Below, piece by piece: positions 46,247 through 54,080 of a stretch of DNA of 64,000 nt. The position numbers were made by a program, and so were the translations under genes. Each line of letters begins with the position of its first letter. The stretch's first letter is position 1. The stretch comes from Patescibacteria group bacterium. GTDB taxonomy: Bacteria; Patescibacteriota; Patescibacteriia; Patescibacteriales; UBA12465. The notes beneath the pieces are model-generated. The model made no database searches and was not told the DNA's origin. It was given only the letters and a program-made list of their open reading frames with translations. The stretch lies in contig JBAZBP010000001.1 in assembly GCA_041671365.1 (NCBI GenBank), positions 261,518-325,517 of the forward strand, given 5' to 3'.

Positions 46247-47101
46247 TTATTCTATATAAATGTGTTCGGGTGATTTTTTTATCCACATGATATATGAGCC
46301 GATTCCTCCGGCTAAAACATACCAGGCTGCATATTCCCAGATAAATCGAAAATCTGAGCTAAAGGGGTTGATTCCCATTAGATGCAATCGTGCAGATAAT
46401 GTTCCGACACAGGTTCCTATAATAATTCCCGAGGTAATTATTGTTTTTACCAAAAGATTCGGAAAATTCATTATCACGATTATAAGTAACAAGAGAACTA
46501 TAGAAATTGCTATAAATCCATTAGTTATTATTGAGCTGATTATTGCTCCTAGAAAAATTAAAATAAATATCCAGGTATCAGTAAAAATAATAAAATTACT
46601 TATTAATTTTTTATCATCTTTTCTCTTGATAAATAATGGTAATATCAGAATTGTTAAGACCGGCAAGTAAAAAGAAATTAGTGAAATATCTATAGCTATT
46701 TCCGCTGGTGAGATTTTGTTCTGAGTAGCAATTTTTTTTACTACGCCGGCATTACTTTTATAAGTGCTGACGCTGTATACGTCGCTAGCGGCGATTAGCG
46801 GTAAAACGTTATAGTTATATTGGAAGTTTAAAATTATAAATTTCCAAGATTTTATCGGAACAGCCTGACCGATGGCCAGGTTATTGAGCTCATCAACAGA
46901 AAAAATTTTAGCCTCAACTCCCTCAAAAGATAGATTCGCTCTCAGATTTGCCAGTTCCTGAGTCGCCAATTTTTTAGTGGCGTTTTTTATGATAATTTGG
47001 CGACTTTCTGGGGTGCGGACTTGATGGACTTGGGCATAAATCTCTGAACTTAATAAGAAAATAATTATTAGAACCGCTGTAACTGAAAATAGATTTTTCA
47101 T
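46247..47101 (-). CDS. hypothetical membrane protein (signal peptide, extracytoplasmic domain, C-terminal TM bundle)
   Basis: N-terminal VTAVLIIIFLLSSEIYA and several Ile/Leu-rich helices. Visibly more AT-rich than its neighbours. Confidence 0.6.
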   Translation of the reverse strand: MKNLFSVTAVLIIIFLLSSEIYAQVHQVRTPESRQIIIKNATKKLATQELANLRANLSFEGVEAKIFSVDELNNLAIGQAVPIKSWKFIILNFQYNYNVLPLIAASDVYSVSTYKSNAGVVKKIATQNKISPAEIAIDISLISFYLPVLTILILPLFIKRKDDKKLISNFIIFTDTWIFILIFLGAIISSIITNGFIAISIVLLLLIIVIMNFPNLLVKTIITSGIIIGTCVGTLSARLHLMGINPFSSDFRFIWEYAAWYVLAGGIGSYIMWIKKSPEHIYIE

Positions 47102-48013: not shown

Positions 48014-48078
48014 CTGTTTTTATTGTGGTTTTTAAAAGAAGTGTTATAATAATATTAATTATAAATATTAAAAAAAAT

Positions 48079-48852
48079 ATGTTTGAAGAAAATTCTCAAA
48101 ATAATATTAGTGCCGGACAGAAAACAGCTATTATATTAACCGCCTTTGTCTTGTTGGCGTCCGTCATTATTATGGCTATTTTGCGTGATCGAATCGTTAA
48201 TCAGCAATATAAAAATGTAACCGTGACCGGCCAAGGAAAAATAACCTATATACCGGACTTGGCGATAGTTAATCTGGGCGTGCAGATCGATAAAGTCGCT
48301 AAACCGGAAGACGCTTTAAATCAGCTTAACGCCAAGGTCGCCGGTATTATTAAAAGTGTTAAGGAGGCGGGAATCAGTTCGGAAAATATTCAGACGCAGA
48401 ATTATTCTTTATATGCGCAGTATGACTACAAAGATAATGTTTCTCTTATTTCCGGTTATAATGCGAACGAACAGTTAACGATTAAAGTTAGCGGTTATGA
48501 TAAAGATCAGAATAAATTAAGCCGCGTGATTGCTGCCGCAACCAAAGCCGGTGCAAACCAGGTCAACAGTTTAAATTTTGACGCCTCTAATATGATCGAT
48601 TTAAAGCAGTCGGCTCGGATTATGGCAATACAAGACGCTAAAAATAAGAGTGCGGCGCTAGCCTCGGCGGCCGGTGTGAGCCTGGGCGAGATTACCGGTT
48701 GGTATGAGAATTTGATTAATCCCGTGCCTTCTTATAGCAGTTCGATTGATGCTAAAGGCGGTATGGGGGCCGGAGGAGGGGCGGTACCGCAGATTCCCGC
48801 CGGAAATCAGGAAGTTATTATTGAGATTGGTTTAACATATAATATTAAGTAA
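48079..48852 (+). CDS. SIMPL (DUF541) domain protein
   Basis: One TM helix, then VTGQGKITYIPDLAIVNLGV...QNYSLY...GYNANEQLTIKV...AKNKSAALA, typical of SIMPL / 26-kDa periplasmic immunogenic protein. Confidence 0.8.
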   Translation: MFEENSQNNISAGQKTAIILTAFVLLASVIIMAILRDRIVNQQYKNVTVTGQGKITYIPDLAIVNLGVQIDKVAKPEDALNQLNAKVAGIIKSVKEAGISSENIQTQNYSLYAQYDYKDNVSLISGYNANEQLTIKVSGYDKDQNKLSRVIAAATKAGANQVNSLNFDASNMIDLKQSARIMAIQDAKNKSAALASAAGVSLGEITGWYENLINPVPSYSSSIDAKGGMGAGGGAVPQIPAGNQEVIIEIGLTYNIK

Positions 48853-48854
48853 TT

Positions 48855-51323
48855 ATGAACGGAAACGGTAACGCAGATTCCAACCGTAATCTTTTGGCTG
48901 GTAAAACGGTTATAATCGTGAACACGGCCAGTGCTCACGACCCTCTACACTCGAAGAAATCATTTATTAGAAAAGTAAAAAGTTTCGGACTGAAAATAAT
49001 TGTTTTAAGTCGCGAGGCTAACACTTTTCAGCCTTACGTTGACTATTGTTTGACGGCCAACACTTTAAATTATGCCGAGGCCTTAACGGTTCTGGATGAT
49101 TTCTTAAAAGATAATCCGGAGGTTAAACCGGATGGTGTCATTACCTTTTTAGAAGATGATGTTCTGTTAACCGCAAAAATTGCCGATAAGTATAAATTAA
49201 TCAGCACTTCTTATAAAGTCGCTAATCGCGTTCGCAATAAGCATTCTTTTCGGGAGTTTTGTGCGGCCAATAGTTTGCCGGTAGTTAAATTCCGCGAGTT
49301 GAAGAGTAGTCGAGATTTAGAGGAGGTTATTAAGTTATTTCATTTTCCCTTGGTTGTTAAACCAATTTACGGAGCGGCTAGCGCTTTTGTAATTAAAGTG
49401 AATAACGAGGAAGAATTGCGGGAGAGTTATCGCGATATTAAAAAAGATATTTCGGCCAAAGTAGAGTCGGCGCTAAACGACGGTTTAGAAGTTTTTGTCG
49501 AAGAGTATATTGATGGCGATGAAGTTGATATGGATATCTTGATTCAAAATGGAAAAATTAAATTTTGGGCAATTAGCGATAATGGTAAAACTAAAGAACC
49601 GTTTTTTATTGAAACCGTCCGCGTTACTCCTTCAAACTTGCCTCAAAAGAATCAAGCCGAACTTTTAGTGATGGCCGATGAAACTCTAGAAAAATTAGGG
49701 ATTTTAAACGGTTGTATTCATTTTGAAGCGAAATCAACGCCGCTTGGACCAATGCCTTTAGAAATTAATTTACGTCTTGGGGGCGATGAAGTCTATCCGA
49801 GCGTCAAAGCGGCTTGGCATGTGGATTTAATCGAGAATTTATTAAAAATTGCTTGCGGTTTATATATTCCGAAATTTGAATTTCCGTCGGGACCCTATGA
49901 ATATTTAATTGCCGATACTTTTTCTTCGGATTATTCCGGAATTGTCGTAAATTTGGATATCGCCGATGATTTAAGACGGCGGCCCTATATCAAGGAATTT
50001 CAGTTTGAAAAAAAGATCGGTGATTCGGTTTTAACGCCGCCGGACGGTTACGAATACCTCGGTTGGATTTTAGTCAGCGGCAGCAATGCGCTCGACGCTC
50101 AAGATAATTTGCAGGAAGCGGAAAAAGCGGTTAATTATGAAGTCGCGAAATTTCACCCCGCTTCTTCAATAGGTAAGACGGCCAGAAAGTCGCCTTTTTC
50201 AGCTTCCGTGATTAATCGGGAAATTTTGAAGCGCGGGAGTAAAATTGAAAAAATTCGGCGGATGGCTATTTCCAGCCAGCGTAATTTACATATCGGCATC
50301 GCCTGTAATTTATACGAGGAAAACGCCGCCGATCAGGAAACGGCCGTTGAAAACGATTTAACGGTTATCGGCAAAGATATTGAAAAAACTCTTAAGGAAA
50401 GGGGTTATAAAATAAGTTTTTTTGATTTTAACGATTTACCGAAAGCCTTTAATGATTTAAAAAACAGCGACGTCGATTTAGTGGTTAATGTCTGCGAGCG
50501 GATTAATAATTCTAGTTTGCTGGAACCGCATGCGGCCTCAATTTTAGATACTCTGCAAATTCCTTATACCGGATCCAATCCTTTTACCCTGGGACTTTGT
50601 ATCGATAAAATTAGGGTAAAAAAATTATTAAGTTATCATAAAATTCCTACCCCAGAATGGGATTATGTTTATTCGTTAGATGATGATATTCGTGAGGACT
50701 TAAAATATCCTCTAATAGTAAAACCGGCCAACACTGATAATTCTATCGGTATTACTAATGATTCCGTAGTTAGAAATAAAGAAGAGCTATACCGGCAATT
50801 AGAAGTGGTCTTAAAACAAATCGGTCGTCCGGCGTTAATTGAGGAATATATTGATGGCGACGAGTATGATGTGCCGATTATCGGCAGCGAAGATGATGAT
50901 TTGCGCATTCTTCCTTTAGCACGCTCAATCTTCGATGAATTACCGGCTAATTTATGGCATATTTATCCCTTTGAGGCGAAATATACGGACGGCGGTGAAT
51001 ATAAAAAGATTGTGGTGCAGCGTCCGCCAAAAAATATTAATAAGAAGCTTGAGGCGCTGCTGGGAGAAATTGCTCTTGATACTTATAATATTCTGGATTG
51101 TCACGATTACGGACGGATTGAAATTCGGGTCGACAAAAACAATAACCCTTATGTTCTCGAACTTAATCCCAATCCATCACTCGACGCCGAAGGAACTTTT
51201 TCCGCTTCGGCCGAAGTTATCGGCCTGGATTATGGGGACTTTTTAGAAGAAATAATTCGACTGGCCATTAAGCGCTATAAAGACAATCCGCCTTATTATC
51301 ATCTGCAACCGAACGTGATGTAA
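48855..51323 (+). CDS. fused protein with two ATP-grasp ligase modules (N-terminal amino-acid-ligase-like, C-terminal D-Ala-D-Ala-ligase-like)
   Basis: Module 1: FPLVVKPIYGAASAFVIKV, VFVEEYIDGDEVDMDIL and LEINLRLGGD. Module 2: YPLIVKPANTDNSIGIT, ALIEEYIDGDEYDVPIIG and YVLELNPNPSL. 822 aa in total. Confidence 0.8.
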   Translation: MNGNGNADSNRNLLAGKTVIIVNTASAHDPLHSKKSFIRKVKSFGLKIIVLSREANTFQPYVDYCLTANTLNYAEALTVLDDFLKDNPEVKPDGVITFLEDDVLLTAKIADKYKLISTSYKVANRVRNKHSFREFCAANSLPVVKFRELKSSRDLEEVIKLFHFPLVVKPIYGAASAFVIKVNNEEELRESYRDIKKDISAKVESALNDGLEVFVEEYIDGDEVDMDILIQNGKIKFWAISDNGKTKEPFFIETVRVTPSNLPQKNQAELLVMADETLEKLGILNGCIHFEAKSTPLGPMPLEINLRLGGDEVYPSVKAAWHVDLIENLLKIACGLYIPKFEFPSGPYEYLIADTFSSDYSGIVVNLDIADDLRRRPYIKEFQFEKKIGDSVLTPPDGYEYLGWILVSGSNALDAQDNLQEAEKAVNYEVAKFHPASSIGKTARKSPFSASVINREILKRGSKIEKIRRMAISSQRNLHIGIACNLYEENAADQETAVENDLTVIGKDIEKTLKERGYKISFFDFNDLPKAFNDLKNSDVDLVVNVCERINNSSLLEPHAASILDTLQIPYTGSNPFTLGLCIDKIRVKKLLSYHKIPTPEWDYVYSLDDDIREDLKYPLIVKPANTDNSIGITNDSVVRNKEELYRQLEVVLKQIGRPALIEEYIDGDEYDVPIIGSEDDDLRILPLARSIFDELPANLWHIYPFEAKYTDGGEYKKIVVQRPPKNINKKLEALLGEIALDTYNILDCHDYGRIEIRVDKNNNPYVLELNPNPSLDAEGTFSASAEVIGLDYGDFLEEIIRLAIKRYKDNPPYYHLQPNVM

Positions 51324-51332
51324 CCCAATAAT

Positions 51333-52247
51333 ATGATTGAACTAAAAGTAATCAGCGACTTAGAGACGGCGCGTAAGGTTTGGGAAGCTTTATCGCCAGG
51401 GGAAACTATTTATGATCTGTGGGAATTCCGCCTGTGTTTTTATCGACAAGAGCCGCAAGCTCTATATTTTTATACTATTTATGAAAACGAGCAGCCGGTA
51501 GCGCTATTGCCTTTGCAATATAATCAGGAATTAGTTTGTTTAGAGTTTTTTGCGGAAAATTTTATGGACGATAATCGTCCCTTTTTTAGACCGGGATATG
51601 AATATTTATTGCCTCAATTATTTCAGATAGATTTTAAACAAACGGTTAAAATTTATGATCTTAAAGGCGAAGATAAATTTACGAGTGCATTGCCGCTGGA
51701 AGATTATATTTATTTTTTGGACACGACAAATCTTCGCAGTTTTGATGACTATTTAAAACAGGCTTTTTCTGACGGTCATAAGCGAGCTAATTTTAAACGT
51801 TTATTTACTCTTTTAGAACGAGATCATGAGGTTAAGGTCAACGTGAATGATTTTAATGACCTGTCGCTTATCATAGATTTAAATGTTAAGCATTTTGGTG
51901 ATGAATCATATTTACGAACAGTTAAAGAACGGCAGGCTTTTTATGATTTATTGAAATTACCGTTGGATTGGCACCTCATAACTATCAGTGTGGACGGTCA
52001 AAAATTGGCCGGATCGCTGGCCATAATTTATCGAGGTACTTATTTTTATTTGCTGGTCGGTTCTGATTTGAGTATTTTTCCTAATGTTTTTAAATATTTA
52101 ACTAAGATTAATTTAGAGACCGCTTTGGCCAAGGCGGTAAAAATTTTTGATTGTTCGCTGGGCGACTGTAATTGGAAGAGTCATTGGCATTTAGCGCGGC
52201 GGCCGCTTTATAAATTTATTAAGTCGCCGGCGACTGACATAAATTAA
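51333..52247 (+). CDS. FemAB-fold GNAT-like acyl/aminoacyl-transferase (CelD/BcsL, Acetyltransf_6-like)
   Basis: 304 aa. The N-terminal W..L...........W...W pattern and C-terminal GSLAIIYRGTYFYLLVGSD...KYLTKINLETA resemble CelD-type GNATs. Recognised by eye only. Confidence 0.6.
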   Translation: MIELKVISDLETARKVWEALSPGETIYDLWEFRLCFYRQEPQALYFYTIYENEQPVALLPLQYNQELVCLEFFAENFMDDNRPFFRPGYEYLLPQLFQIDFKQTVKIYDLKGEDKFTSALPLEDYIYFLDTTNLRSFDDYLKQAFSDGHKRANFKRLFTLLERDHEVKVNVNDFNDLSLIIDLNVKHFGDESYLRTVKERQAFYDLLKLPLDWHLITISVDGQKLAGSLAIIYRGTYFYLLVGSDLSIFPNVFKYLTKINLETALAKAVKIFDCSLGDCNWKSHWHLARRPLYKFIKSPATDIN

Positions 52248-52256
52248 GATATTTAT

Positions 52257-52796
52257 ATGATCATGAAATACGTTAAAACTATACCGCGGTTGATGTTTGA
52301 ATTGCGCCCCTCTCGGGCCTTACCTGGAGAGGTAGCGACTTTTGCGGTACGTAACATTAAAAAAGGGGAAATTATCGCCGATGTTGATTCGCCGGAAGAA
52401 GCGGTTATCATCTCGAGGAACGATTTAAAAAATTTGGATCCAATTACTCGCCGCAAGATTGCCAACTTCGCTCTTTTAGAGGATGATGAATATATCTTAC
52501 CGGCTGATTTTAATAACATGGGAGCATCTTGGTATTTTAATCATAGCTGTGCGGCTAATGTCGGTTATGATAAAAAGGGAAATTTTGTGGCGGCGCGAGC
52601 CATCAAAAAAGATGAAGAATTATTCCTGGATTACGGACGGATGTTTACCGATCCGAAGTTTAAAATGAAGTGTAGCTGCGGGGCGCCCGCCTGTCGGCGG
52701 GTCATTACCGGCAACGACTGGCTAGATCCGGAATTTAGAAAAAAAAATATTACGGCCATGTGGCCGGCGATGAGAAAATTATCGCCTAAAAAATAA
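52257..52796 (+). CDS. SET-domain protein methyltransferase (paralogue 1)
   Basis: WYFNHSCAANV, DEELFLDYG and post-SET CSCGAPACRR. Confidence 0.85.
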   Translation: MIMKYVKTIPRLMFELRPSRALPGEVATFAVRNIKKGEIIADVDSPEEAVIISRNDLKNLDPITRRKIANFALLEDDEYILPADFNNMGASWYFNHSCAANVGYDKKGNFVAARAIKKDEELFLDYGRMFTDPKFKMKCSCGAPACRRVITGNDWLDPEFRKKNITAMWPAMRKLSPKK

Positions 52797-52799
52797 TTT

Positions 52800-53546
52800 A
52801 TGTTTTTATTACCACCTGTCTATTATCAAGTTAAAAAAACTAAGCACAAAGGGCGTGGTGTTTTTGCGCGCAAAGAAATACCGGCCGGAACAATTATCGG
52901 CGACTATACCGGCCGTTTAATTAAAGACGAAGAAATTGAGGCGATTGAGGAGAAATTTGGCCGTGCTTGTTATTCCATGGATTATAATAATAACGGCTTA
53001 TCGATTTTTCCTTTAGATGTAAAAGCCTCGGGCGTTCATTTAATCAATCATTCTTGTTCGGCTAATTGCGATACTTATTTTTATTACGGCCATACTTTAT
53101 TTTTTTCTTTGCGCCGGCTTTTGCCGGGTGAGGAAATAACCATCGATTATAGTTTTGATCCGGAAGATGGCGGCAAACAAGAGGGAATTAATCCCTGTTT
53201 CTGCGGCAGCCCATTTTGTCGCGGGACGATGTATACGAGTGATGAAAAGCTTAGACGCTACGGTGCATTTTGTCGCCAAGAAACCAAGGGGCAGAAGTTT
53301 ACATTATTGACCGCCGGAGAATTTCTGTCGCCTTTGAAAAAATATCCCAAGAGAATAAAAGATAATAAGATTTTTAATTTATTTGCTGATTTAAAGATAA
53401 AATCTTTAAGTTACGACGATAAGAAGCTACCGTCGCTCACCGAATTAAGAAAACGTCTAAGAACTACAGGTAGGATTTTAAATTTTATTAGTTTAGGGTT
53501 AAAGGTTGTGGCCGTGGTTGACGGGAAAATAGTGGTAGAAAAATAA
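52800..53546 (+). CDS. SET-domain protein methyltransferase (paralogue 2, with ~100-aa C-terminal extension)
   Basis: GRGVFARKEIPAGTIIGDYTG, LINHSCSANC, GEEITIDYSF and post-SET CFCGSPFCRG. Confidence 0.85.
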   Translation: MFLLPPVYYQVKKTKHKGRGVFARKEIPAGTIIGDYTGRLIKDEEIEAIEEKFGRACYSMDYNNNGLSIFPLDVKASGVHLINHSCSANCDTYFYYGHTLFFSLRRLLPGEEITIDYSFDPEDGGKQEGINPCFCGSPFCRGTMYTSDEKLRRYGAFCRQETKGQKFTLLTAGEFLSPLKKYPKRIKDNKIFNLFADLKIKSLSYDDKKLPSLTELRKRLRTTGRILNFISLGLKVVAVVDGKIVVEK

Positions 53547-53625: not shown

Positions 53626-53798
53626 AGACTTATAAACATTAGAGTTCTTAAAACAGGGAGTCAAAAAGGCTGATAAATCAAGGTAATTCCAGATCATTAA
53701 TAATTAATTTCTAATTAATTTAAAATAGTAATCATTTTTAATTGGTATTATTATTAAGCAGTTTTAAACTACTTATTAGTAATCCCCATGCTAAAATT

Positions 53799-54080
53799 AT
53801 GTCAAAAATGACAAAATCGCAGATGATCGCTTCCTTAGCGGAGACGACCGGTTTGAGCAAAAAAGACACTGTTAGTTTTATGGATAAATTGGCGGAATTC
53901 GTTTATAAAGAGGTTAAGAAATCCGGTGAATGTATCGTTCCTGGTTTTGGTAAATTAGTTAAGGCTAAGAGAAAAGCGCGTGATGGTCGCAATCCGGCAA
54001 CCGGCGAAACTATCCACATTCCAGCTAAAACCGTGGTAAAATTTCGTTTAGCCAAGGCAGTAAAAGATACAGTTCTTTAG
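53799..54080 (+). CDS. hup: DNA-binding protein HU
   Basis: MTKSQMIASLAE.TGLSKKD...FGKLVKAKRKARDGRNPATGETIHIPAKTVVKFRLAK, the canonical HU/IHF fold sequence. Start at the ATG at 53799 or 53808. Confidence 0.9.
   Translation: MSKMTKSQMIASLAETTGLSKKDTVSFMDKLAEFVYKEVKKSGECIVPGFGKLVKAKRKARDGRNPATGETIHIPAKTVVKFRLAKAVKDTVL

What the first reader, a model, noticed from the sequence alone, without database searches (positions are those of the whole stretch)
48855..51323. Single polypeptide fusing two different ATP-grasp modules
Seen: the N-terminal half (about residues 1-350) has K-P...G / EEYIDGDE / LEINLRLGG motifs resembling L-amino-acid-ligase or carboxylate-amine-ligase ATP-grasps. The C-terminal half (about residues 480-800) resembles D-Ala-D-Ala-ligase-type enzymes (YPLIVKP, EEYIDGDEYDV, LELNPNPSL). 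An unassigned linker of about 120 aa lies between them. Inference: two ligation steps are encoded in one chain, as for dipeptide/tripeptide formation or for initiation plus elongation of a peptide tag. This differs from single-module RimK or Ddl.
Basis: partly seen in the sequence, partly recalled or inferred. Interest (0 to 1): 0.55.

Follow-up and report, generated by a model that had tools for sequence, protein, structure and literature searches.

The report
Fused two-module ATP-grasp peptide ligase
One 822-residue protein of a candidate-phyla-radiation (Patescibacteria) bacterium joins an L-amino-acid-ligase module to a D-Ala-D-Ala-ligase-like module, both apparently active; it is a conserved, uncharacterised enzyme that probably builds a small peptide without ribosomes or NRPS.

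Summary
The ORF at 48855-51323 (+, 822 aa) is real, and it does fuse two different ATP-grasp ligases. Residues ~12-433 are an L-amino-acid-ligase (LAL) module (ATP-grasp_4 + LAL_C2; nearest structure BL00235, 3VOT). Residues ~479-810 are a complete Ddl-type module. All ATP/Mg/transition-state residues are invariant in both halves across 30 homologues, so neither half is degenerate. The "120-aa unassigned linker" is wrong. Most of it is the LAL_C2 domain and the Ddl N-domain, and the true inter-module segment is about 45 aa and conserved.

The fusion is a family. More than 120 sequence clusters were found, and relatives occur in 467 species genomes. Almost all are Patescibacteria; one distant copy lies in a Bdellovibrionales MAG. 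None is characterised.

The C-half is not an orthodox Ddl: the D-Ala site residues are replaced and its scores fall below NCBIfam cut-offs.

Neighbours vary between lineages:
- a FemX-like aminoacyl-tRNA-transferase-fold protein (present in this window);
- SET methyltransferases (two in this window);
- elsewhere, a third ATP-grasp, an Orn/Arg/DAP-type decarboxylase, a PP-loop MurL-like protein and an ABC exporter.

Best reading: it is the core ligase of an NRPS-independent small-peptide pathway whose product is unknown. I rate it a new variant of a known kind, of moderate interest.

The parts
48855..51323 (+). Whole gene: 822-aa fused LAL-type + Ddl-type ATP-grasp ligase
   Evidence: ORF. It is 100% identical to a protein of an NCBI Patescibacteria MAG (529-kb contig) and has more than 120 full-length homologue clusters at 62-97% identity. 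Relatives occur in 467 species genomes.
48855..50153 (+). N-module (residues 1-433): L-amino-acid-ligase-type ATP-grasp, comprising an ATPgrasp_N-like domain (~42-112), the ATP-grasp_4 core (163-310; nt 49341-49784) and LAL_C2 (356-430; nt 49920-50144)
   Evidence: Pfam. PDB 3vot at 3e-28. In the AF2 model this part has pLDDT ~85-95, and Foldseek's best match is 3vot with TM 0.86 normalised to the target. Invariant residues are R127, K129, K169, E216-Y218-I219-G221-E223, H289, E291, E303, N305, R307 and G309-G310.
50154..50288 (+). Inter-module segment (residues 434-478): short, conserved, predicted partly helical, low model confidence
   Evidence: pLDDT is below 50 for 434-461, with helices at 455-477. 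The conserved motif is RFHPASSIGKTxRK..FS.S...KIEKIRRM.
50289..51320 (+). C-module (residues 479-822): complete Ddl-type ATP-grasp (N-domain, central domain and C-domain) with altered substrate pocket
   Evidence: Pfam and NCBIfam. Alignment to E. coli DdlB (sequence verified as 1iov/2dln) shows the following retained and invariant: K97->K585, K144->K623, S151->S630, E180->E663, K215->K709, R255->R754, D257->E756, E270->E769, N272->N771. The following are replaced: H63->E548, S150->N629, G276->S775, S281->G/D780, L282->T/C781.
51333..52247 (+). Conserved partner: 304-aa tandem-GNAT (Acetyltransf_6) protein with the FemX / aminoacyl-tRNA-dependent transferase fold
   Evidence: It starts 9 nt after the ligase gene. 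It lies within 6 kb of the fusion in 36 of 71 species loci, and where present it usually follows the fusion gene directly. The AF2 model has pLDDT 95.6. Foldseek's best matches are FemX 7z6a/4ii9/1ne9, Sba18/Sbb17 aa-tRNA-dependent peptide synthases and A-PGS/MprF.
52257..52796 (+). SET-domain methyltransferase 1 (179 aa)
   Evidence: Pfam SET 3.7e-11. NHSC and DY motifs and a post-SET CxCxxxxC are visible in the translation. It starts 9 nt after the GNAT gene.
52800..53546 (+). SET-domain methyltransferase 2 (248 aa)
   Evidence: Pfam SET 1.2e-18. SET genes lie near the fusion in 18 of 71 species loci, and also in L005 (Komeilibacteria, 4-nt overlaps) and L095 (Bdellovibrionales).
48025..48852 (+). 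Upstream SIMPL/DUF541 gene, 2 nt before the ligase gene. It is syntenic only in the close Falkowbacteria-like clade and is probably not part of the system.
   Evidence: It is present in 27 of 71 loci, all of them close relatives, and absent from distant loci.

Best explanation
The gene encodes a bifunctional amide-bond ligase that forms the core of an NRPS-independent, ribosome-independent small-peptide pathway.

Proposed mechanism:
- Each module works by the ordinary ATP-grasp mechanism: carboxylate + ATP gives an acyl-phosphate plus ADP, and attack by an amine then gives an amide plus Pi.
- The N-module (LAL type) most likely joins two alpha-amino acids.
- The C-module (Ddl type, with a re-modelled acceptor/donor pocket) carries out a second, different ligation. 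It either extends that dipeptide or makes a second building block. One chain would therefore deliver a tripeptide-like product or two linked amide bonds.
- In this window the product would then be extended by the FemX-fold protein, which would transfer an amino acid from aminoacyl-tRNA to a free amine.
- One or both SET enzymes would then N-methylate it, probably on a lysine-like amine.
- Other lineages swap the tailoring set for a third ATP-grasp, an Orn/Arg/DAP-type PLP decarboxylase, a PP-loop MurL-like protein (a possible ATP-dependent C-terminal epimerase), an enolase-superfamily enzyme and an ABC exporter.

Shown: the architecture, the intact catalytic residues, the family conservation, the partner folds and the gene neighbourhoods.
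Inferred: small-molecule (not protein) substrates, the order of steps and the roles of the partners.
Unknown: the identity of the substrates and the product.
For: Two distinct, complete ligase modules.

Every ATP/Mg/transition-state residue is invariant in both halves over 30 homologues at 61-89% identity.

The fused form is the norm. There are more than 120 clusters and relatives in 467 species genomes, with full-length copies down to 28% identity. The only 'split' copy found is a 1-nt indel of a fused gene.

Both halves fall in families whose characterised members ligate free amino acids (PDB hits).

The partner directly downstream has the aminoacyl-tRNA-dependent transferase fold.

In other lineages the fusion sits in tight arrays, often with 4-nt overlaps. 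These arrays hold a PP-loop MurL-like protein, a third ATP-grasp, a PLP decarboxylase, an ABC exporter, an MR/MLE enzyme and SET.

The combination fusion + ATP-grasp_3 + decarboxylase + SET recurs in a Bdellovibrionales MAG where the fusion is only 28% identical. There the decarboxylase is 37% identical to the CPR one (E 8e-94) and the third ATP-grasp matches at E 8e-36.

There are precedents for two sequential ATP-grasp ligases building small peptides. Phevamine A is made by HsvB/HsvC, which add Phe and Val to a polyamine (PMC6187163). Rhizocticin is made by RhiM/RhiC (PMC13579937 abstract).
Against: No substrate, product or activity is known for any member.

The C-half of the AF2 model is of low confidence (pLDDT 30-60), so nothing can be read from its pocket geometry.

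20 of 71 loci show none of the recurring partners. The fusion must therefore be able to work alone, and the partners are not obligatory.

SET enzymes are known as protein-lysine methyltransferases, which fits a protein substrate better than a small molecule.

The MurL_epimerase_C match of the PP-loop partner is only a 'weak' precomputed hit, and I could not reproduce it with the local Pfam copy.

The nearest stand-alone relatives of the C-half sit beside Mur ligase and MurB genes, which leaves a cell-wall role open.
Confidence: 0.55

Rival explanations
1. Cell-wall role. The C-module is a functional D-Ala-D-Ala (or D-Ala-D-X) ligase, and the N-module makes another stem- or bridge-peptide building block. 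The FemX-fold partner would add a branch residue to a peptidoglycan precursor, and the MurL-like partner would supply a D-residue by epimerising a peptide terminus.
For: The C-half aligns over the whole Ddl model and keeps the catalytic set, with E499 aligning to DdlB E15 in 24 of 30 sequences.

Its closest stand-alone relative, P0178 (36% identity), lies beside a Mur ligase and MurB. That clade is annotated as 'Ddl family' in Woesearchaeota.

The partner's best structural match is FemX, a peptidoglycan branch transferase.

MurL is a peptidoglycan-pathway epimerase (PMC5808125).

A DAP/Orn-type decarboxylase and an MR/MLE enzyme (the superfamily that contains the L-Ala-D/L-Glu epimerases) occur nearby.
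Against: The residues that hold D-Ala in DdlB are replaced and the replacements are fixed: S150->N, S281->G/D, L282->T/C, H63->E, G276->S.

Scores are well below the NCBIfam Ddl cut-offs: 184 for the whole protein and 152 for the C-half alone, against a cut-off of 243.

In none of the 92 held loci is the gene in a mur/dcw context.

Its distribution is patchy (467 of about 185,000 species genomes), and identity is high across CPR classes. That pattern looks like an accessory, laterally moving gene.

SET methyltransferases and an ABC exporter have no place in precursor synthesis.
Confidence: 0.17
2. Protein-tagging system. The two modules add amino acids to a C-terminus or side chain of a protein, in the manner of RimK or tubulin-tyrosine ligase. 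The SET enzymes would methylate lysines of the same target, possibly the HU protein encoded just downstream.
For: All characterised SET enzymes methylate protein lysines (general knowledge).

HU follows the SET genes in the window and in its close relatives.

There are weak Pfam RimK/TTL similarities.
Against: The RimK and TTL hits are marginal, with no stretch that passes on its own. The best matches are to LAL and Ddl, which use free amino acids.

HU is also adjacent where no SET is present, and it is absent from the Komeilibacteria and Bdellovibrionales clusters that do have SET.

A decarboxylase, an exporter and epimerase-like partners point to a small molecule.

No conserved candidate target gene was found.
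Confidence: 0.1
3. RiPP (graspetide-like) maturase. The ATP-grasp modules would form lactam or lactone cross-links in a ribosomal precursor peptide.
For: Graspetide clusters have been reported in CPR bacteria (PMC8939145). Microviridin clusters combine two ATP-grasp ligases with a GNAT (general knowledge).
Against: Both halves belong to the LAL and Ddl families, not to the RimK-like graspetide ligase clade.

The partner GNAT has the tandem FemX fold and is not a small N-acetyltransferase.

No conserved short ORF accompanies the gene across the loci.
Confidence: 0.03
4. One half is a degenerate, non-catalytic scaffold, and only one ligation is catalysed.
For: AF2 gives low confidence for the C-half.
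Against: All ATP/Mg/transition-state residues are invariant in both halves. The C-half is the more conserved half, with 20-residue windows at 0.9-0.97 identity. The low pLDDT is explained by a shallow alignment of 30 close sequences.
Confidence: 0.05

Closest known systems
L-amino acid ligases (BL00235 of Bacillus licheniformis, PDB 3VOT; RizA 4WD3; YwfE/BacD 3VMM)
   Same: The N-module has the same domain set (ATP-grasp_4 + LAL_C2) and the same fold (Foldseek E 1e-29, TM 0.86 to 3vot). It also has the same catalytic Lys, Glu and E-x-(N/G/A)-x-R-x-G-G motif.
   Different: Identity is only 22-23%. The module is fused to a second ligase and has the canonical E-x-N where these LALs have E-x-G/A. 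It scores far below the BacD equivalog cut-off (54-62 against 850). Its substrates are unknown.
D-alanine--D-alanine ligase (E. coli DdlB, 2DLN/1IOV)
   Same: The C-module aligns over all three Ddl domains and keeps K97, K144, S151, E180, K215, R255, E270 and N272, plus an acidic residue at position 257.
   Different: The D-Ala-binding residues S150, S281, L282, H63 and G276 are replaced, and Y216 is variable (Y/W/F). Scores are below all Ddl cut-offs. The gene is not in a mur/dcw context and is fused to an LAL.
Phevamine A pathway (hsv operon of Pseudomonas syringae: HsvA, HsvB, HsvC)
   Same: Two ATP-grasp ligases act in sequence to build a short amino-acid conjugate without NRPS or ribosome. 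The amine acceptor there is a polyamine, which matches the Orn/Arg-type decarboxylase found in the related clusters (PMC6187163).
   Different: In the hsv operon the ligases are separate proteins and the accessory enzyme is an amidinotransferase. No sequence relationship to HsvB/HsvC was tested here. This is a functional analogy only.
Sequential LAL pairs in dipeptide/tripeptide antibiotics (rhizocticin RhiM/RhiC; dapdiamide DdaG/DdaF)
   Same: Two different ATP-dependent ligases each form one amide bond of a small peptide (PMC13579937 abstract; reference list of PMC6187163).
   Different: These are separate polypeptides in actinomycete, Bacillus or enterobacterial antibiotic clusters. None pairs an LAL with a Ddl-type module.
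Carbamoyl-phosphate synthetase large subunit (CarB)
   Same: One chain carries two ATP-grasp modules that catalyse two different ATP-dependent steps.
   Different: CarB arose by internal duplication of one family and acts on bicarbonate and carbamate. Here two different families are fused. The Foldseek superposition on CPS is poor (rmsd ~20 A), and Pfam reports no CarB-specific domains.
FemX / aminoacyl-tRNA-dependent peptide synthases (FemX of Weissella viridescens; Sbb17/Sba18 of streptothricin-type pathways)
   Same: The conserved downstream partner has the same tandem-GNAT fold (E 8e-11 to 3e-10, TM 0.65-0.67).
   Different: Identity is 12-15%, and use of tRNA is untested. The family (Pfam Acetyltransf_6) is almost confined to Patescibacteria.
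MurD2/MurL route to D-Glu in peptidoglycan (Xanthomonas)
   Same: In some lineages the fusion is directly adjacent to a ~456-aa protein with a PP-loop-like SFGKDS motif and a weak precomputed MurL_epimerase_C hit. MurL is an ATP-dependent, AMP-forming epimerase of a peptide terminus (PMC5808125).
   Different: The match is weak and could not be reproduced with the local Pfam copy. This partner is absent from the window.

Membership tests
ATP-grasp superfamily (both halves) | ATP-grasp fold with a conserved Lys pair for ATP, a hinge Glu, and two acidic residues plus Asn for Mg2+ | tested here: met
   N-half: K129, K169, E216/E217, E291, E303, N305 and R307 are invariant. C-half: K585, K623, E663, E756, E769, N771 and R754 are invariant. 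Pfam E-values are 5e-30 and 2e-36.
L-amino acid ligase (LAL) family, N-half | ATP-grasp_4 core followed by the LAL-specific C-terminal domain 2 | tested here: met
   PF13535 at 163-310 and PF18603 at 356-430. The best PDB sequence hit and the best Foldseek hit are both 3vot.
L-amino acid ligase (LAL) family, N-half | Reaches a curated equivalog threshold for a characterised LAL (BacD, NF053745) | tested here: not met
   62 bits for the whole protein and 54 bits for the N-half, against a cut-off of 850. It is not an orthologue of BacD. No curated model covers this clade.
L-amino acid ligase (LAL) family, N-half | ATP-dependent ligation of two free L-amino acids | not testable with these tools
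   This needs an enzyme assay.
[quoted passage not shown] | Three-domain Ddl architecture aligned end to end | tested here: met
   NF002378 positions 27-302 of 305 align to residues 506-805.
[quoted passage not shown] | Score above the curated NCBIfam/TIGRFAM Ddl cut-off | tested here: not met
   184 bits (whole protein) and 152 bits (C-half alone) against 243 for NF002378. For TIGR01205 the scores are 152 and 125 against 245.65.
[quoted passage not shown] | D-Ala-binding residues of DdlB (E15, S150, Y216 triad; S281 and L282; H63) | tested here: not met
   S150->N629, S281->G/D, L282->T/C and H63->E548 are fixed in the family. Y216 is Y/W/F. E15 is mostly kept as E499. The alignment of the N-domain is less certain.
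[quoted passage not shown] | Location in a mur/dcw peptidoglycan gene cluster | tested here: not met
   None of the 92 loci shows mur genes next to the fusion. Only the stand-alone relative P0178 does.
RimK / tubulin-tyrosine-ligase-type protein ligases | Significant match to the RimK or TTL models, and a protein substrate | tested here: not met
   RimK scores 34 bits and TTL 16.8 bits. Neither has a stretch that passes on its own, and both overlap stronger LAL and Ddl hits.
Carbamoyl-phosphate synthetase large subunit | Two homologous CPSase_L_D2 modules plus oligomerisation and MGS-like domains | tested here: not met
   Only a weak CPSase_L_D2 hit on the N-half. The halves are 33% identical over 69 aa. 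Foldseek to CPS gives rmsd ~20 A.
Graspetide (microviridin-type) maturases | RimK-like ligase next to a ribosomal precursor peptide gene | tested here: not met
   The halves are of the LAL and Ddl families. No conserved small ORF lies beside the gene in my clustering of neighbours. The precursor search was not exhaustive.
Fem-type aminoacyl-tRNA-dependent transferases (partner gene 51333-52247) | Tandem GNAT fold as in FemX | tested here: met
   The AF2 model has pLDDT 95.6. The top Foldseek hits are FemX, Sba18/Sbb17 and A-PGS/MprF, all aminoacyl-tRNA users.
Fem-type aminoacyl-tRNA-dependent transferases (partner gene 51333-52247) | Use of aminoacyl-tRNA as donor | not testable with these tools
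   This needs an assay. A profile search of PDB sequences gave no significant hit.

The most novel reading that the evidence does not exclude
Episymbiotic CPR bacteria (and at least one Bdellovibrionales MAG, a predatory order) may use this two-site ligase to make a lysine- or polyamine-containing, N-methylated short peptide. The peptide might resemble a peptidoglycan stem peptide, and it would be exported or displayed to act on the host cell. On this reading the SET enzymes would be the first SET-domain methyltransferases working on a small-molecule or peptide metabolite and not on a protein. The conserved 45-residue inter-module segment would help pass the intermediate between the two active sites.
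Probability: 0.15. Interest if true: 0.75.

Novelty: new variant of a known kind. Interest (0 to 1): 0.55.

Why it matters
CPR/Patescibacteria have tiny genomes with almost no biosynthesis. Yet this 2.5-kb gene is kept at 57-97% identity across several CPR classes and recurs with peptide-tailoring enzymes. If it makes a small peptide, that would be one of the few dedicated secondary-metabolite or surface-chemistry pathways in these episymbionts, and so a candidate mediator of host interaction.

For enzymology, it is a natural fusion of an LAL and a Ddl-type ligase. A single-chain two-step peptide synthase is useful for biocatalytic tripeptide synthesis.

The repeated link with SET methyltransferases and a FemX-fold protein makes a testable case for these folds acting outside their known roles of protein-lysine methylation and cell-wall branching.

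Tried and rejected
1. The '120-aa linker' is rejected. It consists of LAL_C2 plus the start of the Ddl N-domain.

2. A natural split version (L011: an LAL-like gene followed by a 318-aa Ddl-like gene) is rejected. L011 differs from the fused gene of L092 by a single 1-nt indel at 99.95% nucleotide identity.

3. Recent internal duplication is rejected. The halves share only 33% identity over 69 aa around the hinge.

4. I used the AF2 model to try to read the C-half pocket and the module interface. The C-half has pLDDT 30-60 with the 30-sequence alignment, so it is unusable.

5. Sequence-profile searches of the PDB for the GNAT partner and for the PP-loop partner gave only insignificant hits (SidK, TtuA). 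The fold search was needed instead.

6. The MurL_epimerase_C and CntK_N labels come from a newer precomputed Pfam release. They were not reproduced with the local Pfam copy, so I keep them as leads only.

7. The JGI name 'carnosine synthase' on a 781-aa homologue (P0126) is an automatic label and I did not follow it up.

8. Literature searches found no description of this fusion or cluster. I searched for ATP-grasp + SET, for Patescibacteria + ATP-grasp/Ddl, for tandem or fused ATP-grasp, and for CPR + BGC. The key review, Iyer et al. 2009 (PMC3268129), is not held.

9. There is no second Ddl-like gene in the 64-kb window or in any held locus. This says nothing about the rest of the genome.

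10. The promoter and terminator scans were not above shuffled expectation and were not used.
Full report
OBSERVATION. The window has an uninterrupted ORF at 48855..51323 on the + strand that encodes 822 aa. EEYIDGDE occurs at residues 216 and 663, LEINLRLGG at 302, FPLVVKP at 164, YPLIVKP at 618 and LELNPNPSL at 768.

Pfam places ATP-grasp_4 at 163-310 (E 5e-30), the L-amino-acid-ligase C-terminal domain 2 (LAL_C2) at 356-430 (7e-13), a weak ATPgrasp_N at 42-112, and Dala_Dala_lig_C at 609-801 (2e-36). NCBIfam Ddl models align to residues 506-805, which covers positions 27-302 of a 305-position model.

Against PDB sequences, the N-half is closest to the L-amino acid ligase BL00235 (3vot, 3e-28, residues 40-411), followed by BacD/YwfE and RizA. 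The C-half is closest to Ddl enzymes (3r23, 3e-26, and about 30 others).

The two halves resemble each other only around the nucleotide-binding hinge (33% identity over 69 aa, E 6e-6). This is therefore a fusion of two different ATP-grasp families and not a recent duplication. The identical octapeptide in both halves is simply the hinge consensus.

CORRECTION TO THE OBSERVATION. The "unassigned linker of about 120 aa" does not exist. Residues 356-430 are LAL_C2, part of the N-module. The AlphaFold2 model is confident (pLDDT ~85-95) from residue 12 to 433, and it superposes on 3vot with TM 0.86 normalised to the target. The Ddl-like N-terminal domain begins at strand 479-484, where HIGIACNLY aligns to KIAVLLGG of DdlB. 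The true inter-module segment is about 434-478. It is modelled with low confidence, yet it is conserved in sequence (RFHPASSIGKTxRK..FS.S...KIEKIRRM.I.NQRNLHIG). It is therefore more than a passive tether.

ARE BOTH HALVES CATALYTIC? I aligned 30 full-length homologues at 61-89% identity.
- In the N-half the following are invariant: R127 and K129; K169 of VVKP; the hinge E216-Y218-I219-G221-E223; H289 and E291; and E303-x-N305-x-R307-x-G309-G310.
- For the C-half I aligned the family to E. coli DdlB.
- Every ATP, Mg2+ and transition-state residue of DdlB has an invariant counterpart: K97/K585, K144/K623, S151/S630, E180/E663, K215/K709, R255/R754, D257/E756 (a Glu), E270/E769 and N272/N771.

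The C-half is in fact the more conserved half, with 20-residue windows at 0.90-0.97 column identity.

IS THE C-HALF A Ddl? Probably not an orthodox one.
- The residues that position the two D-Ala molecules in DdlB are replaced, and the replacements are fixed in the family: S150 to N629, S281 to G/D, L282 to T/C, H63 to E548 and G276 to S775. Y216 is Y/W/F.
- The scores are below the curated cut-offs: 184 bits for the whole protein and 152 bits for the C-half alone, against 243 for NF002378.
- No other Ddl-like gene is present in the window or in any held locus. The rest of the genome could not be examined.

HOW WIDESPREAD IS IT?
- The exact protein is in NCBI as an "ATP-grasp domain-containing protein" of a Patescibacteria MAG (529-kb contig).
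- At least 120 clusters (90% identity level) are full length, 805-839 aa, at 62-97% identity.
- A scan of one genome per species found relatives in 467 species genomes.
- The best 80 (56-88% identity, full length) are Falkowbacteria (the closest), Komeilibacteria, Peregrinibacteria, Gracilibacteria, Roizmanbacteria, Jacksonbacteria, Paceibacterota and Saccharimonadales. Some TPA records among them are titled "uncultured Gammaproteobacteria", which I take to be mislabels.
- In the library of 50%-identity representatives, full-length fusions continue down to about 29% identity. One of these belongs to a Bdellovibrionales MAG.
- The only apparently split copy (L011) differs from a fused gene by a single-base indel.
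- No member carries a functional name beyond automatic labels such as "D-alanine-D-alanine ligase" and "carnosine synthase". My literature searches found no description of the fusion.

NEIGHBOURHOODS. In the window the genes are packed on one strand: DNA-alkylation-repair-like, 11 nt gap, SIMPL/DUF541, 2 nt, the fusion, 9 nt, Acetyltransf_6 GNAT, 9 nt, SET, 3 nt, SET, 195 nt, HU.

I called ORFs in 92 related loci and clustered them. Among the 71 species loci with at least 1.5 kb downstream, the following lie within 6 kb of the fusion:
- the Acetyltransf_6 gene in 36, usually directly downstream;
- SET genes in 18;
- a ~456-aa protein with an SFGKDS PP-loop-like motif in 10, often overlapping the fusion by 4 nt;
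- a third ATP-grasp (ATP-grasp_3, ~434 aa) in 8;
- an Orn/DAP/Arg-type PLP decarboxylase in 7;
- an ABC exporter in 6;
- an enolase-superfamily (MR/MLE) enzyme in 3;
- none of these in 20.

SIMPL and the alkylation-repair gene are syntenic only in the close clade.

The most telling locus is L095 from the Bdellovibrionales MAG. It encodes, in order: the fusion (28% identical to the window protein), ATP-grasp_3, an Orn/Arg decarboxylase, a second stand-alone LAL, SET, and a GNAT-nitrilase fusion. Its decarboxylase is 37% identical to the CPR one (E 8e-94). Its third ATP-grasp and its SET are also homologous to the CPR versions. The set fusion + extra ligase + decarboxylase + SET is therefore a conserved functional neighbourhood that extends beyond the CPR.

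THE PARTNER IN THE WINDOW. The 304-aa Acetyltransf_6 protein has homologues almost only in Patescibacteria (96 clusters). Its AlphaFold2 model is excellent (pLDDT 95.6, pTM 0.91). The best structural matches are all aminoacyl-tRNA-dependent transferases with a tandem GNAT fold. They are FemX of Weissella viridescens (E 8e-11, TM 0.65), the aminoacyl-tRNA-dependent peptide synthases Sba18/Sbb17, and the aminoacyl-phosphatidylglycerol synthases A-PGS, L-PGS and MprF. Both SET proteins carry the canonical NHSC and DY motifs and a post-SET CxCxxxxC (translations; Pfam).

RELATIVES OF THE TWO HALVES.
- Stand-alone LAL-like relatives exist (for example P0142, 43% identical, next to a GCS2 carboxylate-amine ligase).
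- The closest stand-alone relatives of the C-half (P0178, 36% identical) are "Ddl family" proteins, mostly of Woesearchaeota, which are DPANN archaea.
- P0178 lies beside a Mur ligase and MurB. This clade also fails the Ddl cut-offs. In a larger and less certain alignment it shares with the fusion N at DdlB position 150, and it has W at 216 and C at 281.
- Other members of the wider Ddl-like clade are fused to a GNAT, to a second Ddl-like module, or to lysine-2,3-aminomutase.
- Taken together this clade looks like a pool of amino-acid ligases recruited to diverse small-molecule pathways, several of which involve lysine-type substrates.

INTERPRETATION. The best-supported reading (confidence 0.55) is a bifunctional amide ligase at the core of an NRPS-independent small-peptide pathway.
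- Each module uses the acyl-phosphate mechanism common to ATP-grasp enzymes.
- The LAL module couples two amino acids, and the Ddl-type module forms a second, different amide bond.
- In this window the FemX-fold enzyme would add a residue from aminoacyl-tRNA, and the SET enzymes would N-methylate an amine.
- Other lineages exchange these tailoring steps for a further ligase, a decarboxylase that supplies or creates an amine, a PP-loop protein and an exporter. The PP-loop protein may be related to MurL, the ATP-dependent, AMP-forming epimerase of a peptide terminus (PMC5808125), but that hit is weak and I could not reproduce it.
- There are known precedents for such chemistry with separate ligases: phevamine A (PMC6187163) and rhizocticin.
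- The architecture, residues, folds and neighbourhoods are shown. Small-molecule substrates, the order of the steps and the roles of the partners are inferred. The product is unknown.

RIVALS.
- A cell-wall role (0.17). It is suggested by the Ddl and FemX folds, the possible MurL resemblance, and the Mur context of the Woesearchaeota relatives. It is opposed by the altered D-Ala site, the sub-threshold scores, the non-mur context, the patchy accessory-like distribution, and the presence of SET and exporter genes.
- A protein-tagging system with SET acting on the same target, perhaps HU (0.10). It fits what SET enzymes are known to do, but not the ligase families or the decarboxylase and exporter partners. 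In addition, HU adjacency does not track SET.
- Graspetide maturation (0.03) and a degenerate half (0.05) are disfavoured by the family assignments and by the invariant catalytic residues.

VERDICT. The protein is an uncharacterised fused LAL + Ddl-like ligase, widespread but patchy in Patescibacteria, with informative and partly unusual partners (a FemX-fold protein and SET methyltransferases). I rate it a new variant of a known kind, with interest 0.55.

Noticed in passing
window 52257-52796 and 52800-53546 (SET genes); 53742-54080 (HU): Two canonical SET-domain methyltransferase genes sit between the FemX-fold gene and an HU gene. SET also accompanies the fusion in Komeilibacteria (L005, 4-nt overlaps) and in a Bdellovibrionales MAG (L095). 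Bacterial SET proteins linked to a ligase cluster, rather than to host chromatin, are unusual.
   Followed up: partly
L096:195-3873: A two-gene unit encodes [lysine-2,3-aminomutase + Ddl-like ligase] (702 aa) followed by [Ddl-like ligase + GNAT] (518 aa), next to Na+/H+ exchangers. It looks like a separate uncharacterised pathway, possibly for a beta-lysine-derived acetylated peptide or solute.
   Followed up: no
P0195 (697 aa), P0242 (675 aa): These proteins carry two Ddl-type modules in tandem. That is a different kind of double ATP-grasp fusion, and it is annotated only as 'D-alanine-D-alanine ligase'.
   Followed up: no
L097:159-5197; P0178 and P0381-P0499: The closest stand-alone relatives of the C-half are 'Ddl family' proteins, mostly of Woesearchaeota (DPANN archaea). 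One lies beside a Mur ligase and MurB. They too fall below the Ddl cut-offs and, in the alignment, have N/W/C at DdlB positions 150/216/281. This hints at a shared CPR/DPANN ligase clade.
   Followed up: partly
window 50154-50288 (residues 434-478): The inter-module segment is strongly conserved (RFHPASSIGKTxRK..FS.S...KIEKIRRM) although AlphaFold2 models it with pLDDT below 50. The SSIGKT stretch resembles a Walker A motif but is not one. Its function is unknown.
   Followed up: partly
L005:4941-6311; L092:11325-12698; 13 loci in all: A ~456-aa protein family with an invariant SFGKDSLL (PP-loop-like) motif and a Cys cluster (C318, C329, C332, C335 in L005 numbering) lies directly adjacent to the fusion in several CPR lineages. 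It has only a weak precomputed MurL_epimerase_C hit and no hit in the local Pfam copy.
   Followed up: partly
L011:1-1877 compared with L092:9001-11316: An apparently split LAL-like / Ddl-like gene pair turned out to be a single-base indel of the fused gene (99.95% nucleotide identity). It is an assembly error or a pseudogene.
   Followed up: yes
L009:10506-12331; L038:4630-6448: In some Falkowbacteria-like genomes, two paralogous FemX-fold (Acetyltransf_6) genes follow the fusion and no SET gene is present. This suggests that tailoring steps are interchangeable.
   Followed up: no
L056:8001-11259: In this locus the match to the fusion spans 3.26 kb and my ORF caller split it into 364-aa and 799-aa pieces. 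This may be a partial duplication or an insertion at the 5' end.
   Followed up: no
window 50935-51246 (+) and 46260-46670 (+): These ORFs (103 aa and 136 aa) overlap real genes. The first lies in another reading frame inside the ligase gene. The second lies on the strand opposite the 46247-47101 (-) ORF. There is no evidence that either is a gene.
   Followed up: no
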